DNA of 64,000 bases from positions 77,376,001-77,440,000 of the forward strand of contig OX597816.1 of assembly GCA_951406725.2 (NCBI GenBank), written 5' to 3'. The DNA is from Octopus vulgaris (lineage: Eukaryota). Each line of letters begins with the position of its first letter. The first letter of the stretch is position 1. A program made the position numbers and the translations under genes. The notes under the pieces are model-generated. The model did not search any database. It had not been told where the DNA came from and was given only the letters and a program-made list of their open reading frames with translations. Shown piece by piece: positions 16,049 to 44,840 of the stretch.

Positions 16049-16202
16049 TTGATGATGATGTCCAATCAACTAATGCTTTGAAAACTAACTTACGGAAAAG
16101 TGCTGCCAAGAAACGTCAGCGCAAGCAATCACCTCCAAACCAAACCAAACCAGACGACGAGAAGAATAAAAAGGACATAGAAGATAATAAAAAATCAGTT
16201 CG
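16049..16202 (+). CDS. Otop: Otopetrin exon, cytosolic N-terminus (DDDVQSTNALKTNLRKSAAKKRQRK...KKSVR)
   Basis: ttttccag acceptor and cg|gtatgg donor; open frame. The phase-2 end joins the phase-2 start of the TM1 exon (cg+t=Arg). Confidence 0.75.
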
Positions 16203-16216
16203 GTATGGAAATATAA

Positions 16217-16217
16217 T

Positions 16218-16282
<65 letters not shown>

Positions 16283-16316
16283 TAATAATAATAATAATAA
16301 TAATGATAATAATAAC

Positions 16317-16358
<42 letters not shown>
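16217..16358. repeat. (AAT)n microsatellite immediately after an exon donor
   Basis: About 47 AAT units with few interruptions. Confidence 0.98.
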
Positions 16359-16360
<2 letters not shown>

Positions 16361-16899
16361 CCCTGATGCAGTACCTGGCAGTGACCTTCATGGTTTCTCA
16401 TCCTAACTGATTGGAAGTTTTATCATGTACATTGTTTTGTCTTGGAGTAAAATATGGGCTATAGCAATTTTCAGTTGTTTGACCTTAACCAGTTGAGCTT
16501 GTCCCTTAGTGGATGACGATATGTGCATCTCTGATCATGAGAAGTAGTGGAGGAGCACCATGGCTATGTGTTGAGAGGGATTCTTTGGGGTTTGAATAAT
16601 TCACCGCTGGAAATATGAGTGTTTCGTTCAACATCCTTAAACAACCTTTATTCAAGGACCTTTTGAGTGGGATGGGCTACTCAACCTGAAGAAAATTCTA
16701 ACTGGGCCCCACCTGCAAGGTCATGTGCTGTTTATCTTGATATGAAATCACCATACCGCGCACATATGGTTGTGATGCATATGCCTAGTGTACCTTTATC
16801 AGACGGGTAGTCATGATGGGTATACTGGGCTTCGTATATTTTACCCCAGTGCCACTTTGATGGCATGCACTGCTCTCTCACACAATAATAATAATAATA
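16359..16899 (+). mobile_element. Interspersed retroelement-like insertion flanked by (AAT)n
   Basis: More GC-balanced segment of about 525 bp that begins in the (AAT)n tract and ends in an (AAT)n tail; no coding motif recognised. Confidence 0.5.
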
Positions 16900-16929
16900 T
16901 AAGTCATTTTTGACAAATATTGCTTGCTT

Positions 16930-17325
16930 CATGGTATTGCTTGATGAGGCTGGGGTCATCCCAAGTTAGTGGTCCCGGGGGTGCCATCGTGAGTAGTGCC
17001 GACCAGGTCTACCAGTGTCCTTCATCACTGGCGGTCCTTCAAGATGACGTAGAGCTTCTTGAGATATTCCTTAATCACGTCCAGCCATCTAGTTCGGAGC
17101 CTACTATGGGGTCTTTCATGGGCCTGCCATGGTGCCTGTTACAGTGCATGTCACAGTACCTGCCGTGGGGCCTCTTCCAGCCCGCAGTTACTGCGTCAAA
17201 TGATATTAAAGATCTGGTAAGATGATCTGGTGGGAGGCCGAGGACATGTCCGTACCAGCGCATGATGAATAGCTATGAAGTGAGAAGCTGCGAGGTGGTG
17301 CGTGCATGCACGCAGTTCTATGTTG
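16930..17325 (-). mobile_element. RTE-like LINE 3' fragment
   Basis: MRWYGHVLGLPPDH...GWKRPHGR matches the RxRWxGHVxR...WxRPRGRP C-terminal RT region. Confidence 0.75.
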
Positions 17326-17384
17326 ACAAATTTTACAAAAAATAAACGTTTTTTCTTAATTTGTTTCAGTTTGATTTTGCAAAG

Positions 17385-17429
<45 letters not shown>

Positions 17430-18104
17430 TGGACTGAGAAAATCCTAATGGCCACTGAGCGGTTCTTATAAATTTGATGCTCAGTTTTGCTTTTCATGGT
17501 ATTTGGTGGATTAGAGATGATTTACACTTGGTTCAGACGCCAGTCTTGTGGATATCATCAGACTCTTTGCTATGTATTCCCAACAACTTATGAGCAGTGA
17601 GACGTGTCAAGTCAAATGCACTACTGAAATACAATACATACATTAACAAATTTGAATCAAATTTCATCTGATCTAACTCGGCTGTTTTTCATTTTATGTC
17701 TGCAACAGTGGTTTTCAGATATTTTCGCAAATAAAAAATATATTGGTGTATTTTGAGAACACAGTTGAAAAATATAAAAATATTTTTATTTAAAGAAAGA
17801 AGTAATTCATAAATTTTAGCCTTTAAATATAAATAATGCTTTCTACTATAGGAACAAGGACTGAAATTTTGTAAGGGTAAGGTTAATCGATAACATTGAC
17901 CCCAGTCCTCAGCTAGTACTTATTTTACCGACTCCAATGAATAAAAGGCGAAGTCGACATCGGTGAAATTTGAACTCAAAATGCAAATACCGGAAAAGTT
18001 GCTGCTAAACATTCTTTTACTCAGTGCGGTAACTATTCTGCCAACTCGATACCCTCCTGTAAATAATAATATAAATTATAGGAGAGTATATAATATTCCT
18101 TTAT

Positions 18105-18316
18105 TCTTTTCTACTCTAGACACAAGGCCCGAAATTTTGGGGCAGGGGCAGTCGATTAAATCGACCCCAGTACGCAACTGGTACTTAATTTATCGACCCC
18201 GAAAGGACGAAAGGCAAAGTCAACCTCGGCGGAATTTGAACTCATAACGTAAAGACAGACGAAATACTGCTAAGCGTTTCGCCTAGCGTACTAACATTTC
18301 TGCTCGGCGCCGCCTT
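18105..18316 (-). mobile_element. SINE family B monomer
   Basis: Reverse complement of the family-B consensus seen elsewhere in the window. Confidence 0.85.
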
Positions 18317-18575
18317 ATAATACTTCTTTATTCAACGAATAAAACGTAAAATTTCACATTTTTTAAAAATATAGCAACTCCGTCATGCAGTACACTGGTG
18401 TGCCGCAACTCGCTGTACGAGAACGACTACCCCAAAGTTGTCCCATTACGATCTCTTTTCCTTTTCTCCTTTTCCTCTTTATATAATCTTAAAACCTTGC
18501 GTTTATGAAGGAAGGCAAAATAAGATGTTATTATACGCATGGTCCTTCAGTGAATACGTAAAATTTACATCGTAC

Positions 18576-18793
18576 AAGGCGGCGAGCTAGTAGAAACGTT
18601 AGCACGCCGGGCGAGATGCTTAGTAGTATTTCGTCTGTCTTTTCGTTCTGAGTTCAAATTCCACCGAGGTCGGCTTTGCCTTTCATCCTTTCGGGGGTCG
18701 ATAAATTAATTACCAGTTGCATACTGGGGTTGATCTACTCGACTGCCCCCACCTCCCCAAAAATTTTGGGCCTTGTGCCTAGAGTAGAAAAGA
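18576..18793 (+). mobile_element. SINE family B monomer
   Basis: Head, B-box-like motif, body and ccttgtgcctagagtagaaaaga tail. Confidence 0.88.
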
Positions 18794-19147
18794 AGAATTA
18801 TATTGAACAAATACATAACAAGGAGCTTGATTTTCCTGAAAGAGCAGCTAAATCTCCTTCCGATCCTACTGTCGTTTTAAAAAGGAATAGACATATTGGA
18901 TATTGTAATCTCATATGCAATATGTTTTAAAAACTTGTGATAGTCATAGGGTGAATATCTTTTCACCAAGAGTCTGTTCAAACAGGGAAAACTTTGGCGT
19001 AATAAACAAGAAATTGCTTTAATATGAAAAATTGAAGACGAACGTTTATGCACAACGTGATGTGCTAATGATATCATAATTACATAACATCATAATTATA
19101 TAATATCATGGCTATATAGGACTTGGCAGTGGGTGATAGAAAGGATT

Positions 19148-19750
19148 AAAGCGGCGAGCTAGCAGAAACGTTAGCACGCCGGACGAAATGCGTAGTCGTA
19201 TTTCGTCTGTCGTTACGTTGTGAGTTCAAATTCCGCCGAGGTCGACTTTACCTTTCATCCTTTCGGGGTCGATAAATTAAGTACCAGTTACGCACTGGGG
19301 TCGATGTAATCGACTTAATATCTATGTCTGTCCTTGTTTGTCCCCTCTATGTTTAGCCCCTCGTGGGTAATAAAGAAATAGGTATTTCGTCTGCCGTTAT
19401 GTTTTGAGTTCAAATTCCGCCGAGGTTGACTTTGCCTTTCATCCTTTCGGGGTCCATTAAATAAGTACCAGTTACGCACTGGGGTCGATATAATCGACTT
19501 AATCCGTTTGTCTGTTCTTGTTTGTCCTCTCTGTGTTTAGCCCCTTAGGGGTTGTAAAGAAATAGGTATTTCGCCTGCCGTTACGTTCTGAGTTCAAATT
19601 CTGCCGAGGTCGAGATTGCCTTTCATCCTTTCGGGATCGATAAATTAAGTACCAGTTACGCACTGGGGTCGATCTAATCGATTTAATCCCTTTGTCTATC
19701 CTTGTTTGCCCCCTCTATGTTTAGCCCTTTGTAGGCAATAAAGAAATAGG
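19148..19750 (+). mobile_element. SINE family B trimer (head plus 3 x 184-nt units), nested in an older family-B copy
   Basis: Unit starts at 19197, 19381 and 19565, ending about 19749; gaaaggat on both flanks. Confidence 0.9.
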
Positions 19751-20290
19751 AAAGGATAGAGCGTTGAATAAAATACTTTGACGTTTCGTTGTTATTCTAT
19801 ATTTTGAGTTTAAATCCTGCCTAGAAGATTTTGCCTTTCATCTTTCTGGTTTCGATTAACAATGTACCAATCCACTAACACTAGAACCTAGGGGATATGG
19901 CTGTAACTTTGACCGTAATACCCTTACATGGCCATTGTCCGTTGAAACTAGTAGAATAAAAATAATCATTCTTACGTTTGTAAATATCATTCTCAATCCT
20001 ACTTTAATAATATATCTCTCTTTTCTCTCTCTGTTCCTCTCCCTCTTCATTTTTCTCTTGACATAGAGAGAGGAGGAGAAGGGTGAAATCAACTTCATTA
20101 TACTTTAACAAACAAATTGAACTTTAAAGGAAAAATTATTTAAAAATTTAAAAATTTTAAGTCATAAATCGATATTATTGATAAATTGCTATGATTGAAA
20201 ACTGGCGAAAATTATAATTCTTTACTTTTTTTATATTTCTTTACTTTTTATAGTTTAAAACATTTATTTCGTCACTTCTTTGTTTTGCAG

Positions 20291-20405
20291 TGATGGTTTC
20301 TTCATCATACTCAGTGGAATGTACGGCCTACTACTGGTGGTGCTTGGTGCTGTGATACCAATTTCTGAAACTTTTGCAAATCTTGCGACCTTGTATTTCT
20401 TCGAT
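20291..20405 (+). CDS. Otop: Otopetrin exon, TM1 (DGFFIILSGMYGLLLVVLGAVIPISETF...)
   Basis: tgttttgcag acceptor and gat|gtatgt donor; LSGxYG motif typical of OTOP TM1; phases match neighbouring exons. Confidence 0.92.
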
Positions 20406-20810
20406 GTATGTATATTTTTATATCTTTAACATATATTTCAATCATCTTAGGTCTATGGCTGGTTGTATTTTCTTTCAGTGATATATTAGAATATTAAAAT
20501 ACCGTTTTGTTCATCAACTATAATTTCCTTTAAGATATGTTGTATTGTGCAAATGCTATTAAATCAATGTAAGGCGGTGAGCCGGCAGAAACGTTAGCCG
20601 GGCAAAAATACTTAGCGGTATTTCGTCTGCCGAGGTTGACTTTGCCTTTCATCCTTTCGGGGTCGATAAATTAAATAATAGTTGCGTACTGGGGTCGACC
20701 TAATTGACTGGCCCGCTCCACAAAAATTTGGGGCTTTGTGCCTAGATTAGAAAAGGTTATAAAACCAATGTACAAATATATCCAATATAGATAAAGAACA
20801 ATATTTGACC

Positions 20811-21170
20811 CAAGGTGGCAAACGGCAGATTCGTTACCGCGCCGGGCGAAATGCTTAACGGTACTTCGTCTGCCGCTACGTTCTGAGTTCACATTCCGCC
20901 GGGGTCGACTTTGCCGTTCATCCTTTCGGGGTCGATTAAATAAGTACCAGTTACGCACTGGGGTCGATATAATCGACTTAATCTGTTTTTCTGTCCTTGT
21001 TTGTTCTCTCTGTGCTTAGCCCCTTGTGGGTAGTAAAGAAATAGGTATTTCTTTTGTCTTTACGTTCAGAGTTCAAATACCGCCGATGTCGACTTTGCTT
21101 TCATCCTTTCGAAGTCGATAAAATATGTACCAGCTGAGCACTGGGGTGTAATCGACTTAGCCGCTTCCCC
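20811..21170 (+). mobile_element. SINE family B dimer
   Basis: Two bodies joined at aagaaata|ggtatttc. Confidence 0.85.
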
Positions 21171-21641
21171 GAAATTGCTTAATTTCCACCCCAACCCGCC
21201 CACTTTCAGAAAAGAAGAAAGTCATTGGATCTATCTCCTCTATCTTGTACATTTATTTTTAAAAACAAAGTTGAAACCGATATTTATTTGTCGCAGAGAG
21301 TAGTCAATTGGCCAGATCAGTAAAATAGTTGGCAAATTAATTACGATATATAGACAGAGCTCTTTATTTTCCTAATTCAAACCGAGTCAACTTTACCTTT
21401 CATTCTCCCAGGGTTGCTAAAACACCCTAGTTAAGTACTGGAGATCAACATATTGGACTACACGTTTTTCCCTACATATGAGGCCGTTTTAGGGAGAGGC
21501 GGAGAGTTTCGACAAAATTAGAAATGAATATATTATTTATTTCGTGCACAATTACGATAAATAGAGCCTGTTGTTTGACTTTCTACTGCCAAAAATATCC
21601 ATCAATGTGATATAGGATCTAGGGATTAAGAAAGTTGGGAA

Positions 21642-22045
21642 ATAGGTGCAGACGTGGCTGTGTGGTAAGAAGCTTACTTTCCAACCACATGGTACCGGGT
21701 TCAGTCCCACAGCATGGCACCTTGAACAAGTGTTTTCTACTATAGAGTCGGAACGACCATAGCCTCGTGAGTGGATTTGGTAGACGGTAACTGATAGAAG
21801 GCCGTCGTACATATATATATATATGTATGTATATCTATATGTGTGTGTGTGTCTTTGAGTCTGTGTTTGTCCACCACCATCGCTTGATAACTGGTGCTTG
21901 TGTGCTTACGTCCCTGTAACTTAACGGTTCGGTAAAAGAGACGGATAGAATAAGTACCAGGCTTAAAAATAACTACTGGAGTCGATTCATTCGACTAAAA
22001 ATTCTTCAAGGCCAGGCCCCACCATGGCCGCAGTCTAATGACTGT
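21642..22045 (+). mobile_element. SINE family A (tRNA-like head, internal TA/TG microsatellite)
   Basis: Box A-like tggctgtgtggt and box B-like ggttcagtccc; same body as 35975-36380. Confidence 0.88.
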
Positions 22046-22301
22046 AACAAGTAAAAGAAAAGAAATATATAGGAATTACGACGTTTATACATCTTATCGT
22101 ATTCTATTGATTCGCAGTTGATGTTTCACTTCACTTGAAATTGCTCGAGTTCCACCCCAACCCACCCACTTTCGGAAAAGAAGAAAGTCATTGGGTCTAT
22201 CTCCTCTGTCTTGTACATTTATTTTTCAAAACAAACAATATTCTTGTGGGCATTGCACTATGGGCATCTGTTGCTGTTATTGATGTGTGTATGTGTGAAT
22301 A

Positions 22302-22332
<31 letters not shown>

Positions 22333-22786
22333 AAGAGAGTGTGTGTGCCTGTGAGCATATGCGTGTGTGAGAGAGAGAGTGTGTGCCTGTGTGAATGTGT
22401 GTGTGTGTGTGTGTGTGTGTGTGATTATGTGTGTGAGCGTGTATGATGATAAATGAAAATTGATAGAGACACTGTTCAAATTATGTTAAGCATGTTTCCA
22501 TAGAATCGTTATTTATTTGGTCATTAATGTATTATTCTTTATTATTTTATTATTTTATTCTTTTTTGTGCCAGTCATTTGAATGCGGCCATGCTGGAGCA
22601 CCACCTTTAGTCGAACAAATCGACTTATTCTGTCGGTCTCTTTTGCCGAACCGCTAGTAGACACGCCACCATCGGATGTCAAGCGGACGGTTGATGTCTG
22701 TAGTTATTATCAGTGTATTTTGGCGATTTAAATAAAAGTTTTGACTGCTATTTTCAGCAGGTAGACATACTTAATATGTCCTTTGA

Positions 22787-22838
<52 letters not shown>

Positions 22839-22953
22839 CGGGCTTCTTTCAGTTTCCGTCTACCAAATCCACTCACAAGGCTTTGGTCGGCCCGAGGCTA
22901 TAGTAGAAAACACTTGCCCAGGTATCCTGGTATGACAGGTATCCTGATGTGTG

Positions 22954-22999
<46 letters not shown>

Positions 23000-23589
23000 T
23001 ACCTATATGTATATAAGTAATTTTTTGGACTTTGGGTATATATCTATTAGTATGCCGATAAAAGCATATTCACCGTTTGGGCTACCTGATGTCATCCACA
23101 GTTACAGTATAATTTTCATTGGATCTACGTCAGTTATCCCGCAGTGTTCGTTTAGTTTAGAACTGATGAGGGAAACAGAAAATGGGTTTGGTACGAAACA
23201 AGATTCGCAGCAAATACATGGTCAAATGTCTTCTACTATAGCCCTCGGGCCGACCAAAGCCTTGAGTGGATTTGGTAGACGGAAACTGAAAGAAGCCCAT
23301 CGTGTATATATATATATATTTATATATATATATAATCAAAGGAATGCTAAGTATGTCTACCTGCTGAAAATAACAGTCAAAACTCTTATTTAAATTGCCG
23401 AAATACACTGATAATAACTACAGAAATCAACCGTCCGAAGGCAAACGGGCTTAGAATTATCTCTCAGCATACATTCAAGTATTTCAAGTATTTTTAAATT
23501 GTTACACTAGATAATAATAGAGTCAATGATATCTTCGCAAATTATTTTTCCTCTCGAATTTTCTCGTGAAAAATGTGCTCCGTATGTGT

Positions 23590-23626
<37 letters not shown>

Positions 23627-23862
23627 TGTGTTTGTCCGACATCGCTTGACAACCGATGTTTGTATGTCTACGTCCCCTTAACTTAACGGTTCGGCAAAAG
23701 AGCACGATAGAATAAGTACTAGGCTTACAAAGAATAAGTCCGAGGGTCGATTCGTTCGACTAAAGGCGGTGCTCCAGCATGGCCGCAATCAACTGACTGA
23801 AACAGGTAAAGTAATAAAAGAAAGAATATATATATATTTACATACATATACGTATATATGTT

Positions 23863-23914
<52 letters not shown>

Positions 23915-23965
23915 ATTACATACATATATACATATATATGCATAAATATATATATATATCATATG

Positions 23966-24812
23966 TAATCCACTTTGGAAAAGAGGATGCCCTGAAACTC
24001 CCATACTCCCTTCCTTCAGGTGAAACTCTCGTGGCGTCCAACAACATCAGAGACTTGGGAGTAATTGTGGACAACAACATAAGCTGGGCCACTCATATAA
24101 ATACCAAAGTTGACATGGCCCGCAGAATGTGTTCCTGGATTCTCAGAACTTTCAAGTCGAGAGTTATCCACACCATTATCCTTCTCTTCTCCACTTTTGC
24201 CCGACCCCACCTTGAATACTGTTGTCCACTGTGGTCTCCCCACACAATACAAGGTATCATAAAAGTTGAAGCACCTCAAAGGGCAATCACAAAAAAGATA
24301 GATGGCATGACAGGCCCCGACTATCAGGGTCGACTAGAAAAGCTAAAACTCTATTCTCTCCAACGTCGTCGTGAGCGCTACATCATCTGCATGATGTGGA
24401 AAATATTCCATCAGCATTGCCCAAATGATGTTGGCATCACCTTTAAGGTACATCCAAGGCTTGGGCCCCGTGCCATCCGCCCAAAACAAAAATCGCACTC
24501 TCATCTCATAACAACAATACGGCACAATTATTTCACCTCAATTGAAACCCGCTCTCTTTAACATTACACCAAAACACATTAAAACAGAAACTGACCCTAT
24601 AGGGTTCAAGAAGTCTTTGGACAGATTCCTTCAAGAAATCCCGGATAAACCCCCTACACCCGGATATGTCTCTGTAAACAATAACTCTCTACTTGAGTGG
24701 GCCATAGTGCCCAAATTCTGACTTGAAAGACTTCACCAGGTGGTGCTATTAAGTTAGACATGGCCTGGGCCAATAATGGCCGAAACCTATCAAAGTATCA
24801 AAGTATCAAAGT
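23966..24812 (+). mobile_element. 5'-truncated CR1-clade LINE (RT C-terminus plus 3' UTR) in an otopetrin intron
   Basis: RDLGVIVD, RPHLEYCCPLWSPH, QRAITKKI and RLEKLKLYSLQRRRER; 3' octamer tail (tatcaaag)3. Confidence 0.92.
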
Positions 24813-24977
24813 ACATGTGTGCGTGTGTGTGTAAACTGTTTCTTTCATTTTAATTTTCATTCAAATTTTTTCTCGATAATTTAAAATTTTAAATCTCACC
24901 TATAGCTATGCCACGATCACCATGTTAGCTCCTGCTTTTATTTAATCCTAATCTGTTTCGTTTTGTTCTCTTCCCAG

Positions 24978-25242
24978 GCCTTCTACATATATCTGTATAT
25001 CGGAAGTTGCCTTTTCATACTTTATGTTTACACGTTCCTTCTACGACGCAACACAAAAACTATGGGCCATCGGTTCTCATTCTATCGCCAATGGTCACGC
25101 TCTCTAAATCGTTCTTGGTCGTTTGGAAAACGACCGGAGAAAAACGGAGAGAGAAATGACGGAAGACACCGTCGCAATTTCACAACAGACGTAGCCCCGC
25201 ATAATCCCAACGGAAGTTTTTACCTTCGACTCGGTGCTATTG
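24978..25242 (+). CDS. Otop: Otopetrin exon, TM2 to start of TM3 (AFYIYLYIGS...GSFYLRLGAI)
   Basis: ttcccag acceptor and g|gtgagt donor; FYxYLY and GSFYLRxGA are hallmark invertebrate otopetrin motifs. Confidence 0.95.
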
Positions 25243-25414
25243 GTGAGTTATTGCTTAAATTTTGAAAGTTTCCTGTCAGAAATATTGCTTGCTTACACAA
25301 GTCTTTAGACTAGTGGTTCTCAACCGGGGTCCATATGGCCCATGGGGATCCATAGAAGATTTTCTTGTTAAAATTTATGTGCAATAAATTGTTTATAATT
25401 CGACAATAAACAAA

Positions 25415-26288
25415 ATAGGCGCAGGAGTGGCTATGTGGTAAGTAGCTTGCTTACCAACCACATGTTTCCGGGTTCAGTCCCACTGCGTGGCACCTTGGGC
25501 AAGTGTCTTGTACTATAGTCTCGGGCCGACCAAAGCCTTGTGAGTGGATTTGGTAGACGGAAACTGAAAAGAGCCCGTCGTATGTATATATGTATATATA
25601 TATATATATATACAAAATGAGAAAATGGAGAAACATACCTAAATCAATCATCAACCATTAGATGATATCCACTCAATACTTTATTAAACCATTACACAAC
25701 AGCAATGACATTATACATAATATATTACAAATATAACTAGACATAGAAATAGAAGTATTTTCTATTTCTATTTCTATGTCTAGTTATATTTGTAATATAT
25801 TATGTATAATGTCATTGCTGTTGTGTAATGGTTTAATAAAGTATTGAGTGGGTATTATCTAATGGTTGATGATTGATTTAGGTATGTTTCTCCATTTTCT
25901 CATTTTGTATTATTAATTTACGGTAATAATTTTACCCTTGCCCACATAATACAGTAGATTAATTAATTGCATCGCAATTTTTAACATTTATGTATTAGTT
26001 TTGTTGGGTACCTCTCTAGCAGTATATTGGATATATGTTATCCCATGGAGGGTTGAATTTACAACCCCTATCTCATTTTATAACTATATATATATATATA
26101 TATCTAATGTAGGATAAAACTTTTTTCGAAAAAAAATTCGTTTCCCAAAAAAATTTTATCAATTTTTATCGACCTTTTTTCGAGTAGCGTGCGGATTGTG
26201 AAAAAATTAATGATTAATGGACAATATGTCCAATTTTTCGGCATATTTGGCATTAGAAATTTTTTCGTTTGCCCTTATTTATGAATTG

Positions 26289-26335
<47 letters not shown>

Positions 26336-26545
26336 GTATGTATATGTTTGTGTTTGTTTCCCCCCCCCCAACATCGCTTGACAACAGATGCTGGTGTGTT
26401 TATGTCCCTGTGACTTAGCGGTTCGGCAAAAGAGACTGATAGAATAAGTACTAGGCTTACAAAGAATAAGTCCTGGGGTCGATTTGCTCGACTAAAGGCG
26501 GTGCCCCAGCATGGCTGCTGTCAAATGACTGAAACAAGTTAAAAA
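25415..26545 (+). mobile_element. SINE family A split by insertions in its internal (TA)n
   Basis: Head at 25415-25580 and tail at about 26345-26545 match the intact copy at 35975. Confidence 0.88.
25611..26085. repeat. Near-perfect hairpin (arms about 145 bp) plus a unique tail of about 175 bp, inserted in (TA)n
   Basis: 25611-25755 is the reverse complement of about 25765-25910 with about 3 mismatches and a very short loop. Confidence 0.92.
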
Positions 26546-26776
26546 GTTAAAGATTAAAATATTTTAGCAATTTTTATACAGTTCTTAATAATATATAATT
26601 ATAAAAATATAATGAGATATTTTAAACATTGAGTGGCTAGGGATGAGTCTCTGTAGAGTAATATAGGAATCAAAAGGGTCGAGAGGCAAAAAATGGTTGC
26701 GTACCACTGGTTTAGACGGAAGAAGCAATCGATTATATTGATTCAAGAACTCGAATAAATATCATATCTCACACTC

Positions 26777-27077
26777 CATCAGTTACGACGACGAAGGTCC
26801 CAGTTGATCCGGAACAGCCTGCACGTGAAATTAACGTGCAAGTGGCTGAGCACTCCACAGAGACCGGTACCCTTAACGTAGTTCTCTGGAAGATTCGGCG
26901 TGACACAGAATGTAACAAGGCTGGCCTTTTGAAAAACAGGTACTACTCATTTTTGCCAGCTGAGTGGACTGGAGCAAAGTGAAATAAAGTGTCTTGCTCA
27001 AGGACACAGCGCGCTGCCAAGAATCGAACTCACGGTCGTGAGCCGAATACTCTAACTAGTAAGCCACGCGCCTTCAC
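26777..27077 (-). mobile_element. SINE family E (tRNA head, CORE-like segment)
   Basis: Minus strand gtgaaggcgcgtggctta...gagttcgattc...gtgtccttgagcaagacacttta; related fragments at 48.9-49.2, 55.5 and 56.6 kb. Confidence 0.75.
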
Positions 27078-27523
27078 AGTACTCGAATAATAATTTATTT
27101 TATTGACCTTAGATGGAGGGAAGTGGATTTCAACGGAATTTGAATTCAGAATGTGATATGGCTTAACTCTTTTTCATTTCCGGTAGGAATTTAGTACTTA
27201 GCATTTCCTTCACACAACCAATGCTGAAAGTGAGTGAGTGGGAGGGAAAGAGAGAGGGGTAGGAGAGAGAGTGCGGACAAAGAGAGGAATTGATCCCAGT
27301 ACTTAGGTGTTGTTTTGTTTATCGATTCTAGAAGTATTAATGACAAAGTTGACCTCGGAGCGATTTGAACTCAGAATGCCAAGAGCTAGAACAATTACTG
27401 CGAAGCATTTGTTCGACGCTCAAAGGTTCCTGGCAATCGACCCCCATCACGAACTTTTGAGATCAATTTAAATGAATTGTCACCAGCCCCTCCGTACGAG
27501 TGTTAGGAAGTATTGTTATTATT

Positions 27524-27851
27524 ACTTTCTACTCTAGGCACAAGACCCGAAATTGTGGGGGAGAGGGACAGTCGATTAGATCGACCCCAGTACGCAACTG
27601 GTACTTAATTTATCGACTTCGAAAGGGTGAAAGGCAAAGTCGACCTCGGCGGAATTTGAAAATAGAACGTAAAGACAGACAAAATACCTATTTCTTTACT
27701 ACCCACAAGGGGCTAAACACTGAGACGACAAACAAGGACAGACAAAGGGATTAAGTCGATTATATCGACCCCAGTGCGTAACTGGTACTTATTTAATCGA
27801 TCCCGAAAGGATGAAAGGCAAAGTCGACCTCGGCGGAATTTGAACTCAGAA
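27524..27851 (-). mobile_element. SINE family B dimer, head truncated
   Basis: Two bodies with the aaatacc|tatttc junction on the forward strand. Confidence 0.85.
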
Positions 27852-28708
27852 CATAAGTTCTATGTGCCACCAATATTTTTAGGCAAAAGCGAGAGTGGAA
27901 AAATACGTCATGCGTCGTGGATTTTAGTGTCTTTGTGCAACGAGAAAGTGAGAGGTAATCTTTGCTTGCAGATCTAGTTTCATTCGTCCAGGTGTTTGTC
28001 AGTAAAGCAACAAATAAAGTTAGTTCAAATGAAGAAAGTGTAAACCATTCACTTGACTTTAGTAACCTCATGTTTAGAAACCTGTTGCTAGTATTTTGAC
28101 ATTGGTAACACGATACCAGTAACACCGACAACATAATACCAAAAACCTGGTGCTAGCTTTAAGATGTGAACAACTGAAATACTGCTGCTGCTGGTGGTGT
28201 TGTTGTCTTTGTTGTTGTTATCGTCCTTATATTTGTTTACCTCCAGATCAACCCAGACAGGGCATACTTATGATTAAGGACATTCAAGTCATTGCCAACT
28301 TGTCTTGTTTATATATATCAGAGTCTATATTGTACAATATACCCTTTCCTTTTTAAAGAGTGCATTTTAAAGGAGATTTACATGCTATTTCTAACAGCAG
28401 AAGCTCTCTCGTTATCTCGTATTACAACTAAATGCTGTAGTTATTGTTGCTTAGTCCTATTTCTGATCAAGCAGACCTGGGAATAAAAACATCCTAACCA
28501 TGGCCATTAAGTCTTTTCAGACAATTTATCTCAGATTACATTATCCAATATGTCCATTTTTAAGCCGAGGACGTGTTTTCCAAGGAAATTTAGCTGCTAT
28601 TTCTAACAGATTGAACTGAGCTCTTAAGGTCTGTACGTTGATCTGCTGATGAAAATGAAAGTCAATAACATTACTGTAATATTTTTTCAAGATATAGTGT
28701 AGCTAGAA

Positions 28709-28905
28709 CTCGGAGGTGCTGAAAAGTTCCTGACTTTGGGTAACAGAAAATACAAGATCAGTTAATTATAATTTTATTCAACATATTCCCCTCTCAGCAG
28801 TTCTTCAGTTTTTCTAAGCCCTGTAAAAGAGCTCGAAAGGTTAGGCCTCCAACCAGGCCTTTCGCAACACCCTTAAAGCCAGGAACTTTTCAGCAACCCC
28901 TCATA
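28709..28905. mobile_element. Mariner-type MITE
   Basis: TIRs ggtgctgaaaagttcctgacttt / aaagccaggaacttttcagcaacc; other copies at about 47350-47523, 53895-53999 and 61328-61545. Confidence 0.8.
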
Positions 28906-29444
28906 TATTATCCAATGTGTTGGTAAGGTGAGATAGAGGTGGGGAGCTTTAACCGCTAGTTCCAGCTGTTCGATACACAGCGTAAAGGCTTCCTCGTTGG
29001 CTTTTCTTTTATGAATCAGCATTACATCAACAGTTAATATGCGACACGCCATCAACAACACTTGAGAATTAATTTGCTTGCTCAGCTTATTGTTCATGCT
29101 AAGTTAGCTGTTAGTAACCTTCTGTAATGTAAATTTTAATGACATAGTGTTTCTTTCGAATATCTGATTTTATTGCTCGAAAAGCGATATAGTTTGTTTT
29201 TTTTTTCTTTTTCGGGAAATAATATAATTCGCACTCACACATAGGAGCAAACACGTGCACGTACAGTTGCCAATTATGTCTACTTTTCGTAGCGAGGCTA
29301 AAACTAAGCTTATTAAACGAAATATTATGACTTTAAAATAATCATCTATGTATCCTGCTTAACGTAAATAAATCGTTGAAAGACAATTTACAGCGGTATT
29401 CGTCCAGAGATGGCGTCTCCTGTGGCCATGCAATACTTAAAAAC

Positions 29445-29479
<35 letters not shown>

Positions 29480-29481
<2 letters not shown>

Positions 29482-29790
29482 CACCAAGTAAGTTAGGTTG
29501 TTGTAGATCCAACCCACTAAGGGATAATACTTATCCAATATACTGTTGGTATAATACCCAAATTATTAATACACAAGTGTTTTTAATTGCAATGCAATTG
29601 ACTTACTTATTGTATTAAATGGGTGAAGGTAAAGAAATATTTTACCATTAATTTATAATACAAATAAGAAAATGGAGAAACAATTTAGTTCTCGTTTTGT
29701 TAAATAAATAAATAAATAAGTCAACATTCTAATATCCGAAAGCTGATGAACCAACTAAATTGTTTCTCCATTTTGTTATTTGTATTATAT
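29480..29790. repeat. Fold-back element of the same family as 25611-26085, opposite orientation, in (TA)n
   Basis: Tail followed by inverted arms atacaaataagaaaatggagaaacaatttagtt / aactaaattgtttctccattttgttatttgtat. Confidence 0.8.
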
Positions 29791-30315
29791 ATATACCGAA
29801 AACGCCAGATGCATTCCGACCTCGTTGAACTTTGTCAGTGGCATGTACACATGCTTAGTCCAAAATATATTCTGCTTTTAAACATACCACATCCATAAGA
29901 CAAGTTATAGCTGAACGAATGCCGTAGTAAATTGCCTTTCAACGCTGTATTTACATTAAATATGATACATAGATTACTATTTTAATTTAAAACTGCTTCT
30001 ATTGCATGTGGTGGATTGTAACTTTGGTTACAAATTAAATTTCAAGTACTCTCCGTGGGTGCTCCAGCTAATACGCACAGCCAGCATTGTATCGTTATAA
30101 AATCATCAAAATATAAGATTATGGCCCATAATATTATCAAAATGTAGTGACTAAAACCATTAAATGCAAGAATAAAAGAACTACACTTTCTTAGCAAGCA
30201 GAATTAATTAATCGAATCCTAATGGTGACCTTAACAAAAGCCGAAACTAAGTGATTAGTAGGTCATAATCTCAAGTCATTCGACTAAGAAAAGTTATGGG
30301 GACATAAACACACCG

Positions 30316-30382
<67 letters not shown>

Positions 30383-30732
30383 GGGCTTCTTTTAGTTTCC
30401 ATCTACCAAATCCACTCACAAGGCTTTGCTTGGCCCGAGGCTATAGTAGGTACCACTAGGTACCACGCAGTGGAACTGAACCAAAATCATGTAGTCAGGA
30501 AGCAAGCTTCTTACCACAGTCATGGCAGCACCGATATGTGGGGGGGGCGTGTGCGTGTATCTATACTCATACATACATACATACATACATACATACATAC
30601 ATACATACATACATACATACATACATACATACATACTTACAAGTATATTTCTCCGACTTGGTTTGTTCTTCAGTTTTTCCGACATTCCAGAATGATATCC
30701 AGTCAATCATTTATATCCTTGTATTTCACTAG

Positions 30733-30896
30733 GTTTTGGTATCGGTGGTATGATCCACAGTGGTCTACAACTGGGACAGCATTTGCAACTTATCGGTGGA
30801 TCGAATGACTGTGATGGTCTAATGCAAATTGTAAAGCCACTATTTCATCTGGTTTTTACTTTTGTCCAACTCTATTTTGTATTTCTCAACCCTAAG
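30733..30896 (+). CDS. Otop: Otopetrin exon, TM3-TM4 (FGIGGMIHSGLQLGQ...FTFVQLYFVFLNPK)
   Basis: tttcactag acceptor and aag|gtaa donor; FGxGxMI and FxQxYF motifs; phases 1 to 0 are consistent. Confidence 0.95.
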
Positions 30897-31130
30897 GTAA
30901 ACTATTTATATTTACAGATTTTTTTTCCATTTTTTATTTGGTCTACATGATTTTTTATGTGACACCGTGTGTTGAAACAGATTTTGTTTGATCCTGGGAA
31001 GGTCATTATGCCAATAATAAATCTGTAATTTTAAGGAAATCATCAGTTGAAGACATTTCATTCCACATACATCTTTGAAAATGCATGAACAAATTACTTT
31101 TCTCTAATTGTTTATTTTTGTTTACCACAG

Positions 31131-31458
31131 GTTTGCATCCATCGCTACAAGACATTGGCTCGTTTCGGATTAATGCATATGTGCGGCACAAATATCTGTG
31201 TCTGGTTTCGTAATATTGTAGTGGAAACACTGCATGAGATGCATTCTGGGATTGCTCACTCTTCCAACGGTCATGGCAGTCACGGTCTCAAACATCCGCT
31301 CGTTGAACATCACCAAAACAATCACACTACACATCCAAGCATTCATATGCATACCGTTCATCACGTTAAAGATACACATCATATAGAACATACTCACAAC
31401 TCGTCTCTTCAGCTCCATTCTCACCACAATGCAAATGTTTCTTCCAGGCTAATTGCAG
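31131..31458 (+). CDS. Otop: Otopetrin exon, TM5 plus His-rich loop (ARFGLMHMCGTNICVW...)
   Basis: tttaccacag acceptor and g|gtaatt donor; RFGLMHxxxTNxxxW is the conserved OTOP TM5 motif. Confidence 0.96.
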
Positions 31459-31617
31459 GTAATTGTGAACATTTTTTTTCCTTTTATTTTCCGTGAAAGA
31501 AGCACAGGCATGGTTGTGTGTTTAAGAAACTCACCACAGCATTTTGGGCATGTGACATCCGTTACAGCCTTGAGCGGTCAAACCTGTGTGTGTGAGTTTG
31601 GTAGAAGGAAAGCGCGC

Positions 31618-31653
<36 letters not shown>

Positions 31654-31753
31654 ATTTACTTATGCTTATATAATATATATAAATATATACATCGATTTTC
31701 TTTTAAAAATCCTGTCTGCATGAGCATTAATTTTTACATTGCACACACATTTC

Positions 31754-31832
<79 letters not shown>

Positions 31833-31849
31833 AATATATATATATATAT

Positions 31850-32203
31850 ACTCTTTTACTTGTTTCATTTGACTGCGGCCATGCTGGAGCACCGCTTTTA
31901 GTCGAGCTTATTCTTTGTAAGCCCAGTACTTATTCTATCGGTCTCTTTTGCCGAACCGCTGAGTGACGGGGACATAAACACACCAGCATCGGTTGTCAAG
32001 CAATGCTAGGGGGACAAACACACACACACATATATATACATACGGGCTTCTTTCAGTTTCCGTCAACCAAATCCACTCACAAGGCTTTGGTTGGCCCGAG
32101 GCTATAGCAGAAGACACTTGCCCAAGATGCCACGCAGTGGGACTGAACCCGGAACCATGTGGTTGGTAAGGAAGCTACTTACCACACAGCCACTCCTGCG
32201 CCT
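31850..32203 (-). mobile_element. SINE family A
   Basis: Reverse complement of the 35975 copy. Confidence 0.9.
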
Positions 32204-32264
32204 GTATATGTATGTATATATATTTATATATATAAATATATATTTATATATATAAATATATATT

Positions 32265-32315
<51 letters not shown>

Positions 32316-33510
32316 CCTGCGCATAATGTAAATAAGCGTTGATGCAGGCGTACAGGACATTTAAAAGAAAATCAAAAGTTAACAATGTAGAGGAGCGTAT
32401 TAATGTAATAGAATAACGTATGCGACGGGGTTACTAATGTACAAGCCTAGTGCGGAATATTATTATGACTTTTGGAATGCTTCCTATATTTCCATGTGTC
32501 TCTTAGATATTATTTTACGCTTCGTAGGTGAAATTTATCCCCTTGTTAACAGTTTGTTCGTTACTGCCGTTAGAGTTCAGTTGCAGCACTCTGACAGCGT
32601 TTTGATCAAAGAATTCTGAAAGCTTACTTACTCAGGATTACTTCTGATCTGAATACTGATTTGTAGTGAGTCGCGTATTTATTTCAACATTAACTATTTT
32701 CTTTGATTACCTTAGAATAAATAGGTTTTTACCAGTAAAGCGAGAGTAATGAATGGACAAATAACGACTATATTTATAGTCGTCTGCCTATTGTCTGTGA
32801 CCATTGAGGAGATAACTACTCCTAAATGCTAGCATCTCACAGTCTACGTAGATGGCGCTGCGAGCTGATCTCGGTGTATGCACACCATTTTTCAACAAGC
32901 GATATATATTCTCCATGACAAAACTCAGTGAGTAGCTTGTTCTCGAGTTCGAACGTGCATCAAGTATATTCGGACTGATAATAATATTGCAAGCTATATT
33001 TATATTGAAACGTCTTTGACTGTATAAGGAGTGTCGTCATAGTCGTGCGGTTAAGAATTTCGCTTTACAATTGTGTTGTTCTGCGTTCGATATCAGTGGA
33101 CGGTACCTTGAGCGTGTGTCTTCTCCCACAGCCTTCAGTCACCCCTGCCATTAAGAGTGAAATAGAATCAATGGAAACTGTACAAAAACCTATTGAAATG
33201 TACCTCTTCTTGAGTAGAAGATAATCTGTTGCCCAATTTAATACTACTACCTTTTTCTGTATGTGTGGTCATTCGTGGGATGGGGTCTGTTGCAAACATT
33301 CTGATGAAGCCTACACTTTAAAAATAACCCATGGACGGTTTATTCCTCCATTCCCTGTCGCTTGTTTTGAAGGATCTCCAAAGCCATGGGCACTACTCTT
33401 TCTCATCTAATTAAGCAATAAAATTATCAATAATTCCATTGTTGTACTGAATCTAATGATGTTTATTGTTTTGTTTTTTTGTTTTTTCCTTAATTAATTT
33501 TCTTCTACAG

Positions 33511-33663
33511 CGATGGTCAGTACTGTGAATTCTCATGAAACAAAGGCTTTGAAAACACTTCCTGATGTAAACTGCTACTGGAATAAAATGATGGGCAAAG
33601 TGGTGGAACAAGCAGGGCCTTATCTCTATCCTTGCAGTATTGAATACAGTCTTATTTGTGCCG
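33511..33663 (+). CDS. Otop: Otopetrin exon, end of loop and TM6 (…PYLYPCSIEYSLICA)
   Basis: ttctacag acceptor and g|gtaag donor; LYPxxIEYSL motif. Confidence 0.96.
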
Positions 33664-33988
33664 GTAAGACATTATGATCTATGAAAACCCTTAATCTTAA
33701 CTGAAACATTTGTTATCTCTTTATGTTAGATAGATCCATCGCCCGGTTTAATATACCACCTGTTTTTAGAATGCATTCATATCCTAATGTCCTTCATTTT
33801 TAAGATTGTAATTTATGATTTGAGGGGAATCTGGCTTCTATTTCTAGAGTCGAGCAACGGCGTAGATGCGCCTTTGTTAGCTCGATATTTTTATTAGACT
33901 AAATTTCAGTTTCAATACAAACCTGATAATTTATTAAGTAAATAAGAAATATTTAAGGAGTCTCCAATATCTTCATTTCTAATTTCAG

Positions 33989-34788
33989 GTATAATGTTTG
34001 TACTTTGGCAACAAGTTGGTCGAGGACCAAAACCCATTTTCACAAAAACCAACGGACAAAATGCTGATGATGACTTTCAGGAATCTCGCTCATATCGTTT
34101 GAGTGTTGACTGTGGTGGTTCAAGTCGAGGCCTTTTCCTCGGCATTCTTCTTTTCGTGGGTGCCGTTATAACAATGGTAGCTTTCTATGTTTTAGTTCAC
34201 AAAGAAAATATGACAATTACTGCCTTGGCTCTGGTTCATCTCTCTGAAATAATAATATACTTGTTGGGTTTAATTGCAACCATAACAGCCGCATGGCGCA
34301 TGCGTGGTCTGGCTTACAAACCTGGCCATGCATCCGTTCTCGAAAGCGTCCTTATATTGATATCCTTAACCGGTGTGTTTATTTTCTGCCTCTTTGGAAT
34401 CATTGCCGCTCTTTTCCACGAGGAAAGTGGTATAACGAACACTTTGTCAATTGCATCGAATCTCATGATGATTATTCAGTCCATAGTTCAAACTGTATTT
34501 ATGGCTGTTGGTGCTGAAATGCAAGCTTATACCCAAGCTCAAGAACGTCAAAAACCAGGACGAGAACTGGTCACATTTCTCATATTGTGCAATTTGTCCC
34601 TTTGGGGCATCAATACATTCGAAACACAGCGCGCTGAACATAATCCCATTCAAACGGATTTTTATGGACACATGGCTTGGGCAATACTTACACACATATC
34701 TGTACCCCTTGGAATATTTTTCCGATTTCATTCTACAGTTTGTCTATCAAATATCTGGAAAAACGCTTGGAAAATCAGACATCACTAA
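33989..34788 (+). CDS. Otop: Otopetrin terminal coding exon, TM7-TM12 (C-domain), stop TAA
   Basis: aatttcag acceptor; VDCxxSxRGLFLG, KPGRELVTFLxxCNxxLW and PLxIFFRFHS motifs; matches ORF 33994-34788. Confidence 0.97.
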
Positions 34789-41699: not shown

Positions 41700-43888
41700 G
41701 CTTATCCAACTAGCGTATCCGAATAATGTCTCATAAGAGAAGTGCTTGTATCACAAAGAAGCAAAAAAAATCTGGACGAAGAATCTCGTGCAATTTCAAG
41801 ACTCACATAGGAAAAGAAGACCTGTTCCTCTAGAAGAGCATTCTTTGAAAAACAATTTCAGGATACCAATGAAACTTCAAATTGTCGCTACCAGTTCCTT
41901 GGAGGTACCCTCAAAGGTAGGAAAGAAAGAACAAAGGAAATTTCGAAAGAACTAACTTTTTTATGGCAAAAGAAATTAAATTTCCATATTTATCAATTCA
42001 AAATGTACAAGAAAAAGTAGAAAAAATGCTGAATATCTACCATAAGTATGTAAAACGAAGAAAATACGATTCATTGAAAAAAAATTTTGACATCACAAAG
42101 GAAAACGGTGAATGGCTGTGCAGTGTGGACAGAAGATTATATCTTCAAATTGAAAGCAAAGGACAGGTTGAGTATGCAACTGGAAAGGGAGCCAGTTCCC
42201 AAAACTATCTATCCACCCAAAAGAAGAAAAGTGTCCTTAATGCCAACTTCAACCAGAGCAACTCCAGTGTCGTCGTCAACATCTGAAGCAGAGATTGAAA
42301 GTAAATATCTAGAAGAGTCCGAAAAATTAGATGAAGAACCCACACAAACAAGGAGAAAGTATAGCAAAACTGGAACTGCAACCAAGTTAGTAATATCTTC
42401 TTGTCGACAGTTATCTTAAGATGGAATCAATGTTGAGACTCCTTCCCAATCTGGTATTTACAGATCGACTATGAAAGAAGCTGTTAAACTAAAAAATAAA
42501 ATGAAGAAATCACTAAATTTAGAAAAATGGTCATTGCATTTTGATGGTAAACGTATTGATGACCAAGAATGCCAAGTGCTAATTTTAAAGAATGAACAGG
42601 GAGAAGTTAAGTTAGAAGCACTCCAATTACCAAAGGGAAAAGCTGATACTGTTGTGAAAGGAATAACAGCTGATTTAGGTGAATACAATTTATGGAACTG
42701 TGTAAAGATGATTGTCGCTGATACAACGAGTGTGAAATGGCATTGTCATTCAGTTGCAAACATTGTTTGCTCAAAAGGGTATGAAAGAACCGCAATTTAT
42801 TGGTTGTCAGCATCATATCCTTGATAGAGTTCTTCGTGTTGTAATGGATAACGAACTTGGTGAAAAAAAGTCATCTCCCAATATTGCATATACATTCATC
42901 CCAGAGCTTTTAAGTAATTACGAGAAACTCCAAGCTAATTTCAACAATAGTGAAGAAACGATTACTGAATCAGCAGGATGGCGAGATGACATGAAATTTC
43001 TATTTCATTTGACTAGAGTTTTCCGTTTATTTGAAGAAACCGGCAAATTTTTTACTGGACAGTTTCAAAAAATACCCAACTTAAGTAAGGCAAGATGGAA
43101 TTCTCGAGCAATACAAGCTCTTTTGGCATTTATTTTTCTACCAGAGAAAAGAGTTTTACTTCTCACTGCTTGTCGATTCATCTCTTACAGCTGAGCAGAT
43201 TTTTGGTTCAATGCACATAATTATCAGAAGTTATGTGGTGGCCTGCAAGTTCATAAAAAAGCATTGAACTCTGTAAAAAAATCTTTTGGAGTCGAGAGAC
43301 CATCAAAACTGATAATTCCCAGAACAAATCAGAGAGCAGAACGGGCAATCAAGTGCCTTCAAGATCTTTATGATGTTTGTAAAAAGAAGGAGAAACTTCA
43401 GCTTCGATTTATTTTATCTAACAAAAGATATTAATTCTTTGTTATGTTTAAAAATTTGCCAACATTCATCACACTTTTTCTTATACAGTTACTTAAAGTT
43501 TGGAATTAAACCTATACAGTTAAAAATATGTGTTATTTTTAATTTTGTATGTTATCGAATGCTTGAAGTGGCCTCTGTCTTAATTTCAATTTCAATTCAG
43601 TAATCTTAAAAATGTATAAATACACATCTTTCTTGAGTTTACAAGGATTTAGTCAGCGGGTGAATCTAGTACCACTTAGTGATTATAGTTTTAAAAGCTC
43701 ATAACTCCGAAATTACTTCGACTAGAGAGCTGAAATTTCAGATATACCATTTCTGCATTGCATTGAGTCAGCACACCAAGTTTGGTAAAAACAAATACAG
43801 CAAATAAATGTTAGTTTCCTAGCTTCTGTTAAATTATTCATCGAATTAAAGTATAGGGTCATCAGGTTGTGAAACAGTCATAACCCTA
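41700..43888 (+). mobile_element. Fragmented hATm-like DNA transposon (transposase pseudogene)
   Basis: Successive frames give LHFDGK, ADTTSV, GCQHHILD, ARWNSRA and TNQRAERAIK; frameshifts and stops; likely 3' end cataacccta at about 43888; left TIR not found. Confidence 0.8.
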
Positions 43889-43987: not shown

Positions 43988-44840
43988 TTTCTACTACAGA
44001 CACAAGGCCTGAAATTTTGAGGGAGGAACCTAATCGATTATATCTTATTTTATTATAAGTTATTTTATCAAGCCCAAAAGGATGAAAGGCAAAGTCGAAC
44101 TCGGTAGAATTTGAACATAAAACGTAAAGCTGGAAGAAATGCCTCTAAGCATTGCGTCCGGTATGGTAACGATTCTGCCAGCTCGCCACTTTAATATTAG
44201 TTTAAAATTTTGGCACAAGGCCAACAATTTCGAGGAGAGAGTAAGTCGATTATATCGACCCCAGTGCTCGACTGGTGCTTATTTTATTGATCCCAAAAGG
44301 ATGAAAGACAAAGTCAGCCTCGGCGGAGTTTGAACTCGGAACATGAAGACGGACGAAATACCTATTTCTTTACTGCCCACAAGGGGCTAAACACAGACGG
44401 GACAAACAAGGACAGACAAACGGATTAAATCGATTATATCGACCCCAATGCGTAACTGGTACTTATTTAATGGACCCCGAAAGGATGAAAGGCAAAGTCG
44501 ACCTCGGCAGAATTTGAACTCAGAACGTAACGGCGGATGAAATACGGCTACGCATTTCGCCCGGCGTGCGAACGTTTCAGCCAGCTCGCCGCCCTTAAAC
44601 CAATGAAATACCTACTTCTTTATTACCTACAAGGGGATAAACATAGAGGGAACAAACAAGAACAGACAAAGGTATTAAGTCGATTACATCGACCCCAGTG
44701 CGTAACTGGTACTTAATTTATCTACCCCGAAAGGATGAAAGGTAAAGTCGACCTTGGCGGAATTTGAACTCAGAACGTAACGGCAGACGAAATACCGTTA
44801 AGCATTTCGCCCGTCGTGCCAACGATTCAGTCAGTTCTCC
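43988..44840 (-). mobile_element. Cluster of family-B SINEs (monomer, dimer, further unit)
   Basis: Four family-B bodies, all on the minus strand. Confidence 0.85.

What the first reader, a model, noticed from the sequence alone, without database searches (positions are those of the whole stretch)
31232..31426. Otopetrin with a 21-histidine extracellular TM5-TM6 loop
Seen: directly after TM5 the exon encodes HEMHSGIAHSSNGHGSHGLKHPLVEHHQNNHTTHPSIHMHTVHHVKDTHHIEHTHNSSLQLHSHH, 21 His in 65 aa. It is non-repetitive at DNA level, so not a microsatellite artefact. N-glycosylation sequons in and just after it (NHT, NSS, NVS) fit an extracellular location. Known: OTOPs are proton channels. In vertebrate OTOP1/OTOP3, a few His and acidic residues in the TM5-6 and TM11-12 linkers have been implicated in pH gating and Zn2+ potentiation. 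Inference: this loop may be an expanded proton-collecting antenna, pH sensor or Zn/Cu-binding module, relevant to acid chemosensation, statolith mineralisation or acid-base control in seawater.
Basis: partly seen in the sequence, partly recalled or inferred. Interest (0 to 1): 0.75.

Follow-up and report, generated by a model that had tools for sequence, protein, structure and literature searches.

The report
Histidine-rich outer loop of octopus otopetrin
An octopus otopetrin (proton-channel family) gene has a spliced exon that puts 21 histidines into the channel's outer gating loop; similar loops recur in many snails and shrimps and likely tune the channel's response to acid and to zinc or copper, which is untested.

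Summary
Contigs from 4 of 4 runs (4 studies) carry the whole exon spliced to its neighbours. The gene is an otopetrin with the proton-transfer Glu and His intact. The tract starts at the His conserved in vertebrate channels, on a predicted TM5 helix extension, then turns disordered. It is not unique to octopus: 29 of 205 invertebrate TM5-6 loops have 12 or more His (coleoids, one gastropod paralogue clade, a chiton, shrimps, a fly, a tardigrade, a spider), and they are not one clade. This one is the densest. The genome's two other otopetrins have 1-3 His. His is kept better than neighbouring residues against Argonauta (16 of 21 vs 22 of 44; p 0.007-0.06). Best reading: a tethered module binding protons and Zn/Cu that tunes gating (about 45%). 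A tolerated linker is the main rival. Freshwater and land species carry it too, so a seawater-specific role is unlikely. No description in print (10 searches) or in this scan's earlier notes.

The parts
31233..31427 (+). His-rich tract, 21 His in 65 residues, N-terminal part of the 114-residue extracellular TM5-TM6 loop
31233..31235 (+). First His of the tract; aligns with the His after TM5 in mouse OTOP2 (H194), zebrafish Otop1 and chicken Otop3; inferred equivalent of mouse OTOP3 H234
   Evidence: PMC10101688
31131..31458 (+). Exon with TM5 and the His tract (AG/GT ends, phase-1 donor), included whole in transcript contigs
   Evidence: Pfam PF03189 52.6 bits
31320..31442 (+). Three N-glycosylation sequons (31320, 31398, 31434)
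31446..31457 (+). Basic-x-hydrophobic motif after the last sequon, a layout shared with many His-rich loops; role unknown
33511..33663 (+). Exon with the rest of the loop, its single Cys (33573) and TM6 with the proton-transfer Glu (33642)
33989..34788 (+). Last coding exon, TM7-TM12, with the TM12 His (34729); transcript contigs run on to at least 35300
30733..30896 (+). Exon with TM3 end, loop-3 Cys (30810) and TM4
24978..25242 (+). Exon with TM2, the cytosolic TM2-3 loop and the TM3 start
20291..20405 (+).
16049..16202 (+). The first coding exon lies outside the window at L019:1151-3023, giving about 1283 aa in all

Best explanation
This is a spliced exon of an otopetrin gene whose extracellular TM5-TM6 loop carries 21 histidines that likely act as a tethered module binding protons and Zn2+/Cu2+ and so tune when the channel opens. 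Shown: the exon, its splicing, family membership and the recurrence of His-rich loops in the same place across invertebrates. Predicted: the first four His sit on a helical extension of TM5 and the rest is disordered and glycosylated. Inferred: the loop's net charge swings from about 0 at pH 8.1-7.4 to about +14 at pH 6; protonation or metal binding of the imidazoles changes the order or pull of the TM5 extension, which in other otopetrins contacts the TM11-12 linker; protons and metal would compete for the same His. Gene duplicates would thus give each animal a His-rich, more strongly modulated channel beside a His-poor one.
For: Position: the tract begins at the His that aligns with the post-TM5 His of solved otopetrins. 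Mutating that region reduces Zn potentiation in mouse OTOP3 (PMC10101688, passages); replacing the loop abolishes current in human OTOP1 (PMC9585144, section 6); the post-TM5 segment of C. elegans OTOP8 is helical at pH 8 and disordered at pH 5 (PMC11343839, passages). Model of the Argonauta orthologue: TM5 helix runs to residue 229 and covers His 216, 219, 224 and 229, all four kept in this gene; pLDDT is under 50 over most of 241-298. Selective retention: 16 of 21 His but 22 of 44 other residues are identical in Argonauta (Fisher p 0.06; p 0.007 against the LG expectation at matched distance). Composition outlasts sequence: coleoid-gastropod loop identity 0.29 against 0.26 shuffled over 18 pairs, core identity 0.56. 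His is the most enriched residue of loops over N-tails: 3.25-fold in all rows, 2.4-fold in the representative set. 11 of 144 representative loops have 12 or more His against 0.1-0.6 expected. His-rich loops are not one clade (AU p 5e-30). In 13 of 13 genera that I paired, one paralogue has 9-22 His and another 0-7. Charge calculation with His pKa 6.3.
Against: No functional or binding data exist for any His-rich otopetrin loop. The mouse OTOP3 zinc site is not kept as such: the E238 position is Ser, H531 is Gln, E535 is His. His positions are not alignable beyond close relatives, so there is no fixed metal site. The retention test is borderline (p 0.09 without the first two His), rests on one pair and ignores rate variation along the loop. 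His patches also occur on the cytosolic side: 5 of 103 N-tails have 10 or more His in 65 residues (max 21), this protein's own tail reaches 10, and 19 of 192 cytosolic TM6-7 loops are 12% His or more, against 56 of 196 TM5-6 loops and 2 of 190 TM2-3 loops. Loop 5 is known to vary freely in length (PMC2268672, passages), and some homologues fill it with Ser/Thr instead. The sample is seeded by this gene, the rows are related, and the 13 paralogue pairs come mostly from two clades. The link between a His-rich loop and the conserved post-TM5 His (28 of 29) is not significant over 11 independent pairs (p 0.25). Free Zn and Cu in seawater and haemolymph are low (own knowledge).
Confidence: 0.45

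Rival explanations
1. The loop is a tolerated low-complexity, glycosylated spacer. Only the first one or two His matter, as in vertebrate channels, and the rest reflects drift in a loop that accepts expansions.
For: Loop 5 length is highly variable across phyla (PMC2268672, passages). The tract is predicted disordered and unalignable between classes. Other homologues have Ser/Thr-rich or His-poor long loops (35 of 63 loops of 80 aa or more are not His-rich). His patches occur in cytosolic tails too. Two paralogues in this genome do without it.
Against: His is the most enriched residue in this loop, recurs in separate lineages, is kept across gastropods and coleoids without alignable sequence, is retained better than neighbouring residues against Argonauta, and is not explained by base composition or CA repeats.
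Confidence: 0.27
2. The tract is a kinetic proton antenna or local buffer: it captures or releases protons near the TM6 glutamate and raises flux where protons are scarce, without changing the gating set-point.
For: The loop ends just before the TM6 Glu that is protonated from outside (PMC11343839, passages). About 20 titratable groups near pKa 6-6.5 are tethered there; His density is highest next to TM5 (39% in the first fifth of the loop). The sea urchin channel works at alkaline pH (PMC13000164, section 13).
Against: At pH 7.4-8.1 the His are almost all neutral. This tract has few carboxylates (4 in 65), which known antennas use (own knowledge). Mobile bicarbonate buffer already supplies protons in seawater and haemolymph (own knowledge). 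Freshwater and land species carry it too.
Confidence: 0.15
3. The loop serves maturation or attachment, not gating: His residues sense the pH of the secretory pathway or bind matrix or mineral, and the basic motif after the sequon is a convertase site.
For: A sequon followed within 10 residues by [RK]-x-[LIV] is in 25 of 42 loops with 9 or more His, against 2.4 in shuffles (max 7 of 300); R-x-x-R is in 24 of 205 loops against 13.4. The likeness to S1P and furin sites is recalled, not tested.
Against: The motif is short, rows are related, and it does not track His richness over 11 independent pairs (3.6 same way, 2.0 opposite, p 0.69). This gene has no dibasic site. A search for otopetrin cleavage returned 2 papers, neither on this by its listing.
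Confidence: 0.13

Closest known systems
Vertebrate OTOP1/OTOP3 TM5-6 linker (PMC10101688, PMC9585144)
   Same: Same loop, same side, same His directly after TM5; the loop is unresolved in structures and needed for proton sensing and zinc potentiation.
   Different: Vertebrate loop is about 48 residues (PMC2268672) with a few His (4 in the 21 residues of mouse OTOP2 shown); here 114 residues and 22 His. E238 and H531 positions are Ser and Gln, E535 is His.
C. elegans OTOP8 (PDB 8ug4/8ug5; PMC11343839)
   Same: Best sequence and fold match among solved structures; a post-TM5 segment that changes order with pH.
   Different: Its extension is basic and Ser-rich, not His-rich, in the alignment.
Sea urchin Otop2l (PMC13000164)
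   Same: Marine invertebrate otopetrin gated by outside pH and divalent cations.
   Different: Activated by alkali, Ca and Mg in calcifying cells; the paper has no mention of 'histidine', 'zinc' or 'loop'; its loop was not examined here.
Unstudied mollusc and crustacean 'OtopLc-like' proteins (Argonauta P0001, Aplysia P0011, Babylonia P0018, Liolophura P0047, Palaemon P0098)
   Same: 17-21 His in the same loop, one Cys, sequons.
   Different: Mostly richer in Asp/Glu; sequences not alignable to this one except Argonauta; none found characterised.
His-rich loops of ZIP zinc transporters and histidine-rich glycoprotein (recalled, not tested)
   Same: Disordered multi-His segments that bind Zn/Cu in a pH-dependent way.
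   Different: No homology; here the tract hangs on a proton channel's gating linker.

Membership tests
Otopetrin proton channels (PF03189) | Match to the family profile above its cut-off | tested here: met
   260 bits for the last exon and 52.6 bits for the His exon; cut-off 27.8
Otopetrin proton channels (PF03189) | Twelve-helix double-barrel fold | tested here: met
   Model of the Argonauta orthologue (93% identical over 447 core columns), pLDDT 82; all 12 Foldseek hits at E<=0.001 are otopetrins. The window protein itself was not folded.
Otopetrin proton channels (PF03189) | TM6 Glu and TM12 His of the proton path | tested here: met
   Glu at 33642, His at 34729; defined in PMC11343839 and PMC6483595
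Otopetrin proton channels (PF03189) | N-barrel Gln-Asn-Tyr triad | tested here: met
   Q, N, Y present
Otopetrin proton channels (PF03189) | C-barrel Gln-Asn-Tyr triad and FYR box | tested here: inconclusive
   Q, N, F and R present; Tyr is Phe here and in 58 of 196 homologues. The consensus figure of PMC2268672 was not visible.
Otopetrin proton channels (PF03189) | TM9 acid paired with the TM12 His | tested here: met
   Glu in place of Asp, as in 84 of 196 homologues
Otopetrin proton channels (PF03189) | Proton-selective current | not testable with these tools
   needs electrophysiology
Mouse OTOP3-type zinc activation site | His after TM5 (H234) | tested here: met
   His at 31233 aligns with mouse OTOP2 H194; equivalence to H234 inferred from PMC10101688
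Mouse OTOP3-type zinc activation site | Glu four residues later (E238) | tested here: not met
   Ser; Glu at +1 and His at +3 instead
Mouse OTOP3-type zinc activation site | H531 and E535 in the TM11-12 linker | tested here: not met
   Gln and His, by alignment through mouse OTOP2 R517 and S521
His-rich metal-binding segments | Measured Zn/Cu binding | not testable with these tools
   Only spacing counted: 4 HH, 3 HxH, 6 HxxH, 5 HxxxH

The most novel reading that the evidence does not exclude
His-rich TM5-6 loops mark a repeatedly evolved, undescribed subtype of invertebrate otopetrin in which Zn/Cu binding, not pH alone, is the physiological gate: a transition-metal-sensing proton channel kept as one paralogue per animal in cephalopods, snails and shrimps.
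Probability: 0.2. Interest if true: 0.8.

Novelty: new variant of a known kind. Interest (0 to 1): 0.5.

Why it matters
How otopetrins sense outside pH and why zinc and copper potentiate them is open, and the TM5-6 loop is the part that structures do not resolve. His-rich and His-poor paralogues in the same animal, with conserved cores, give a ready swap experiment. If the loop tunes gating, it would give molluscs and crustaceans a way to couple proton flux to trace metals or to small pH shifts. If it is neutral, it removes a tempting false lead.

Tried and rejected
Microsatellite or base-composition artefact: rejected. Assembly error: rejected, two runs with intron-spanning contigs match. Earlier donor removing the tract: in-phase GT sites exist (31210, 31270, 31279, 31285), but no listed joint uses them; the joint table was cut (99 rows not shown) and contigs drop rare forms. 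His-to-Arg RNA editing: no difference in the exon in 4 of 4 contigs; rare editing cannot be seen in contigs. Expression site: no RNA holder on record and no tissue labels. Octopus-only or seawater-only feature: rejected. Single origin of all His-rich loops: rejected on a 43-row subset that I chose; a single origin for coleoid, gastropod and Solemya loops is not rejected (p 0.14), with chitons added it is (p 0.0009); gain and loss cannot be told apart. More cephalopod orthologues: three searches found only two. Co-occurrence of His richness with the post-TM5 His, a basic motif or loop length: not significant over 11 independent pairs. A fourth otopetrin at C2 (28.9 bits, stops inside) gave no tblastn hit with five queries. 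Literature: 10 searches; none listed a paper on His-rich otopetrin loops or on a cephalopod otopetrin; and one search were too loose to be informative; the library lacks most subscription papers and no supplements were read (the alignments in PMC11343839 Supplementary Fig. 4 and PMC2268672 Additional file 1 may show such loops). Earlier scan notes: 0 with all words. No complex prediction was run.

Full report
Observation. The quoted peptide is real. It reads from 31233 to 31427 on the + strand, one base later than stated, and has 21 His in 65 residues. The DNA is not a tandem repeat. His is confined to the coding frame (21 against 0-2 in the other five) and exceeds every base shuffle (max 11 of 5000) and dinucleotide shuffle (max 17 of 2000). 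The three sequons are present.

Gene. The tract lies in exon 31131-31458 of a gene with seven coding exons in the window (16049-34788). All splice sites are AG/GT and the frame is open to one stop. The first coding exon is about 19 kb upstream of the window (L019:1151-3023), for about 1283 aa in all. In 4 of 4 runs from 4 studies one contig joins exons 24978, 30733, 31131, 33511 and 33989 and holds the His exon whole with no differences. A further run confirms the 31458-33511 joint. The run kinds are guesses by the tool and tissues are not given. The genome is an octopus by inference: the core is 93% identical to Argonauta and a paralogue matches an Octopus bimaculoides protein.

Family. Pfam, solved-structure search and the fold of the Argonauta orthologue all give otopetrin. 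The TM6 Glu, TM12 His and N-barrel triad are intact. The FYR tyrosine is Phe and the TM9 Asp is Glu, both common among homologues. The genome has three otopetrins. The C13 copy has 3 His in this loop (via P0057) and the C16 copy 1 in the exon ends read.

Anatomy of the loop. The 114-residue loop runs: conserved post-TM5 His, His tract, sequon, basic-hydrophobic motif, spacer, single Cys, short helix, TM6. In the model, TM5 continues as a helix over the first four His; the rest is low-confidence coil. One Cys is found in 178 of 196 loops and probably pairs with the loop-3 Cys (inference). With a His pKa of 6.3 the loop's charge is -0.7 at pH 8.1, +0.6 at 7.4, +7.5 at 6.5 and +13.8 at 6.0.

Distribution. 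Of 217 proteins held at that point (216 search hits plus this one), 209 had both anchors. Four were dropped (two truncated, two with apparent read-through), leaving 205 loops: 42 have 9 or more His and 29 have 12 or more. This gene has the densest 65-residue window (21; next 17). Rich loops occur in the two other cephalopod-clade orthologues, a gastropod clade that includes freshwater and land snails, a chiton, decapods and an amphipod, a fly, a tardigrade and a spider. Among the 150 best representatives at 50% identity, which depend less on my query, 11 of 144 measurable loops have 12 or more His against 0.1-0.6 expected. Vertebrates and echinoderms were not sampled beyond the solved structures. 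On a tree of 196 cores built without the loop (9 of 205 dropped by filters), the trait needs 11 changes against 27 for shuffled labels. It is therefore inherited in blocks but scattered. One clade for all rich rows is rejected; one clade for the coleoid, gastropod and Solemya rows is not.

Is it selected? For: against Argonauta 16 of 21 His but 22 of 44 other residues are kept (Fisher p 0.06; p 0.007 under LG). Coleoid and gastropod loops share composition but not sequence. His is the most enriched residue of loops over tails. Against: the tests are borderline or on related rows. His patches also occur in cytosolic tails and in the TM6-7 loop. Loop 5 is known to tolerate large changes in length (PMC2268672; part 1 of 4 of the text and passages read).

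Mechanism. In vertebrate channels this linker is part of the gate. H234 and E238 with H531 and E535 form the proposed Zn site of mouse OTOP3, Cu potentiates too, and metal competes with protons (PMC10101688, passages). In human OTOP1, H229 affects proton sensing and replacing the loop abolishes current (PMC9585144, passages and section 6). The post-TM5 segment of C. elegans OTOP8 orders and disorders with pH and leans on the TM11-12 loop (PMC11343839, passages). The simplest reading is that the tract extends this modulatory site into a multivalent, pH-switchable module that binds protons and Zn/Cu. This step is inferred, not shown, and the vertebrate four-residue site is only partly present. 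Rivals are a tolerated spacer, a kinetic antenna, and a role in maturation or attachment.

Novelty. The gene is an ordinary otopetrin. The His-rich loop, and its recurrence in one paralogue of many invertebrates, was not found in 10 literature searches or in the scan's notes. Other papers seen: PMC6483595 (passages) and PMC13000164 (passages and section 13); the rest only as search listings. Supplements were not read. The likeness to ZIP loops, histidine-rich glycoprotein and convertase sites is recalled.

Verdict. Real, expressed, apparently undescribed and directly testable, but shared with many invertebrates and without functional evidence. New variant of a known kind; interest 0.5.

Noticed in passing
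window:31434-31457 and homologues P0003-P0020, P0089-P0121: A sequon followed by a basic-x-hydrophobic motif recurs in otherwise unalignable mollusc loops (25 of 42 loops with 9 or more His vs 2.4 shuffled); many arthropod loops carry R-x-x-R or dibasic sites. Possible convertase sites (recalled consensus); not linked to His richness once relatedness is counted.
   Followed up: partly
window:34720-34722: The Tyr of the FYR box (C-barrel triad) is Phe in this gene, in Argonauta and in 58 of 196 homologues.
   Followed up: partly
homologues, cytosolic TM6-7 loop: His-enriched in some otopetrins (5.4% overall; 19 of 192 at 12% or more; visible in mouse OTOP2 and chicken Otop3), but not in this gene.
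   Followed up: partly
L019:1151-3023: A single 1.9-kb exon encodes a 625-residue low-complexity cytosolic N-tail (acidic run, Ser run, small His/Gln patch), 38% identical to Argonauta.
   Followed up: partly
P0092, P0094, P0116: Some OtopL-type proteins have 237-271-residue Ser/Thr-rich, mucin-like TM5-6 loops instead of His-rich ones.
   Followed up: no
window:14150-15164, 23965-24718, 41921-43431: Broken reading frames that look like LINE reverse-transcriptase remnants and a DNA-transposon remnant (by eye); four of them gave no Pfam hit.
   Followed up: partly
window:19198-19750, 44355-44834, 54779-55147: Tandem copies (184-250 nt period) of an abundant short interspersed element that also occurs singly throughout the window.
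   Followed up: no
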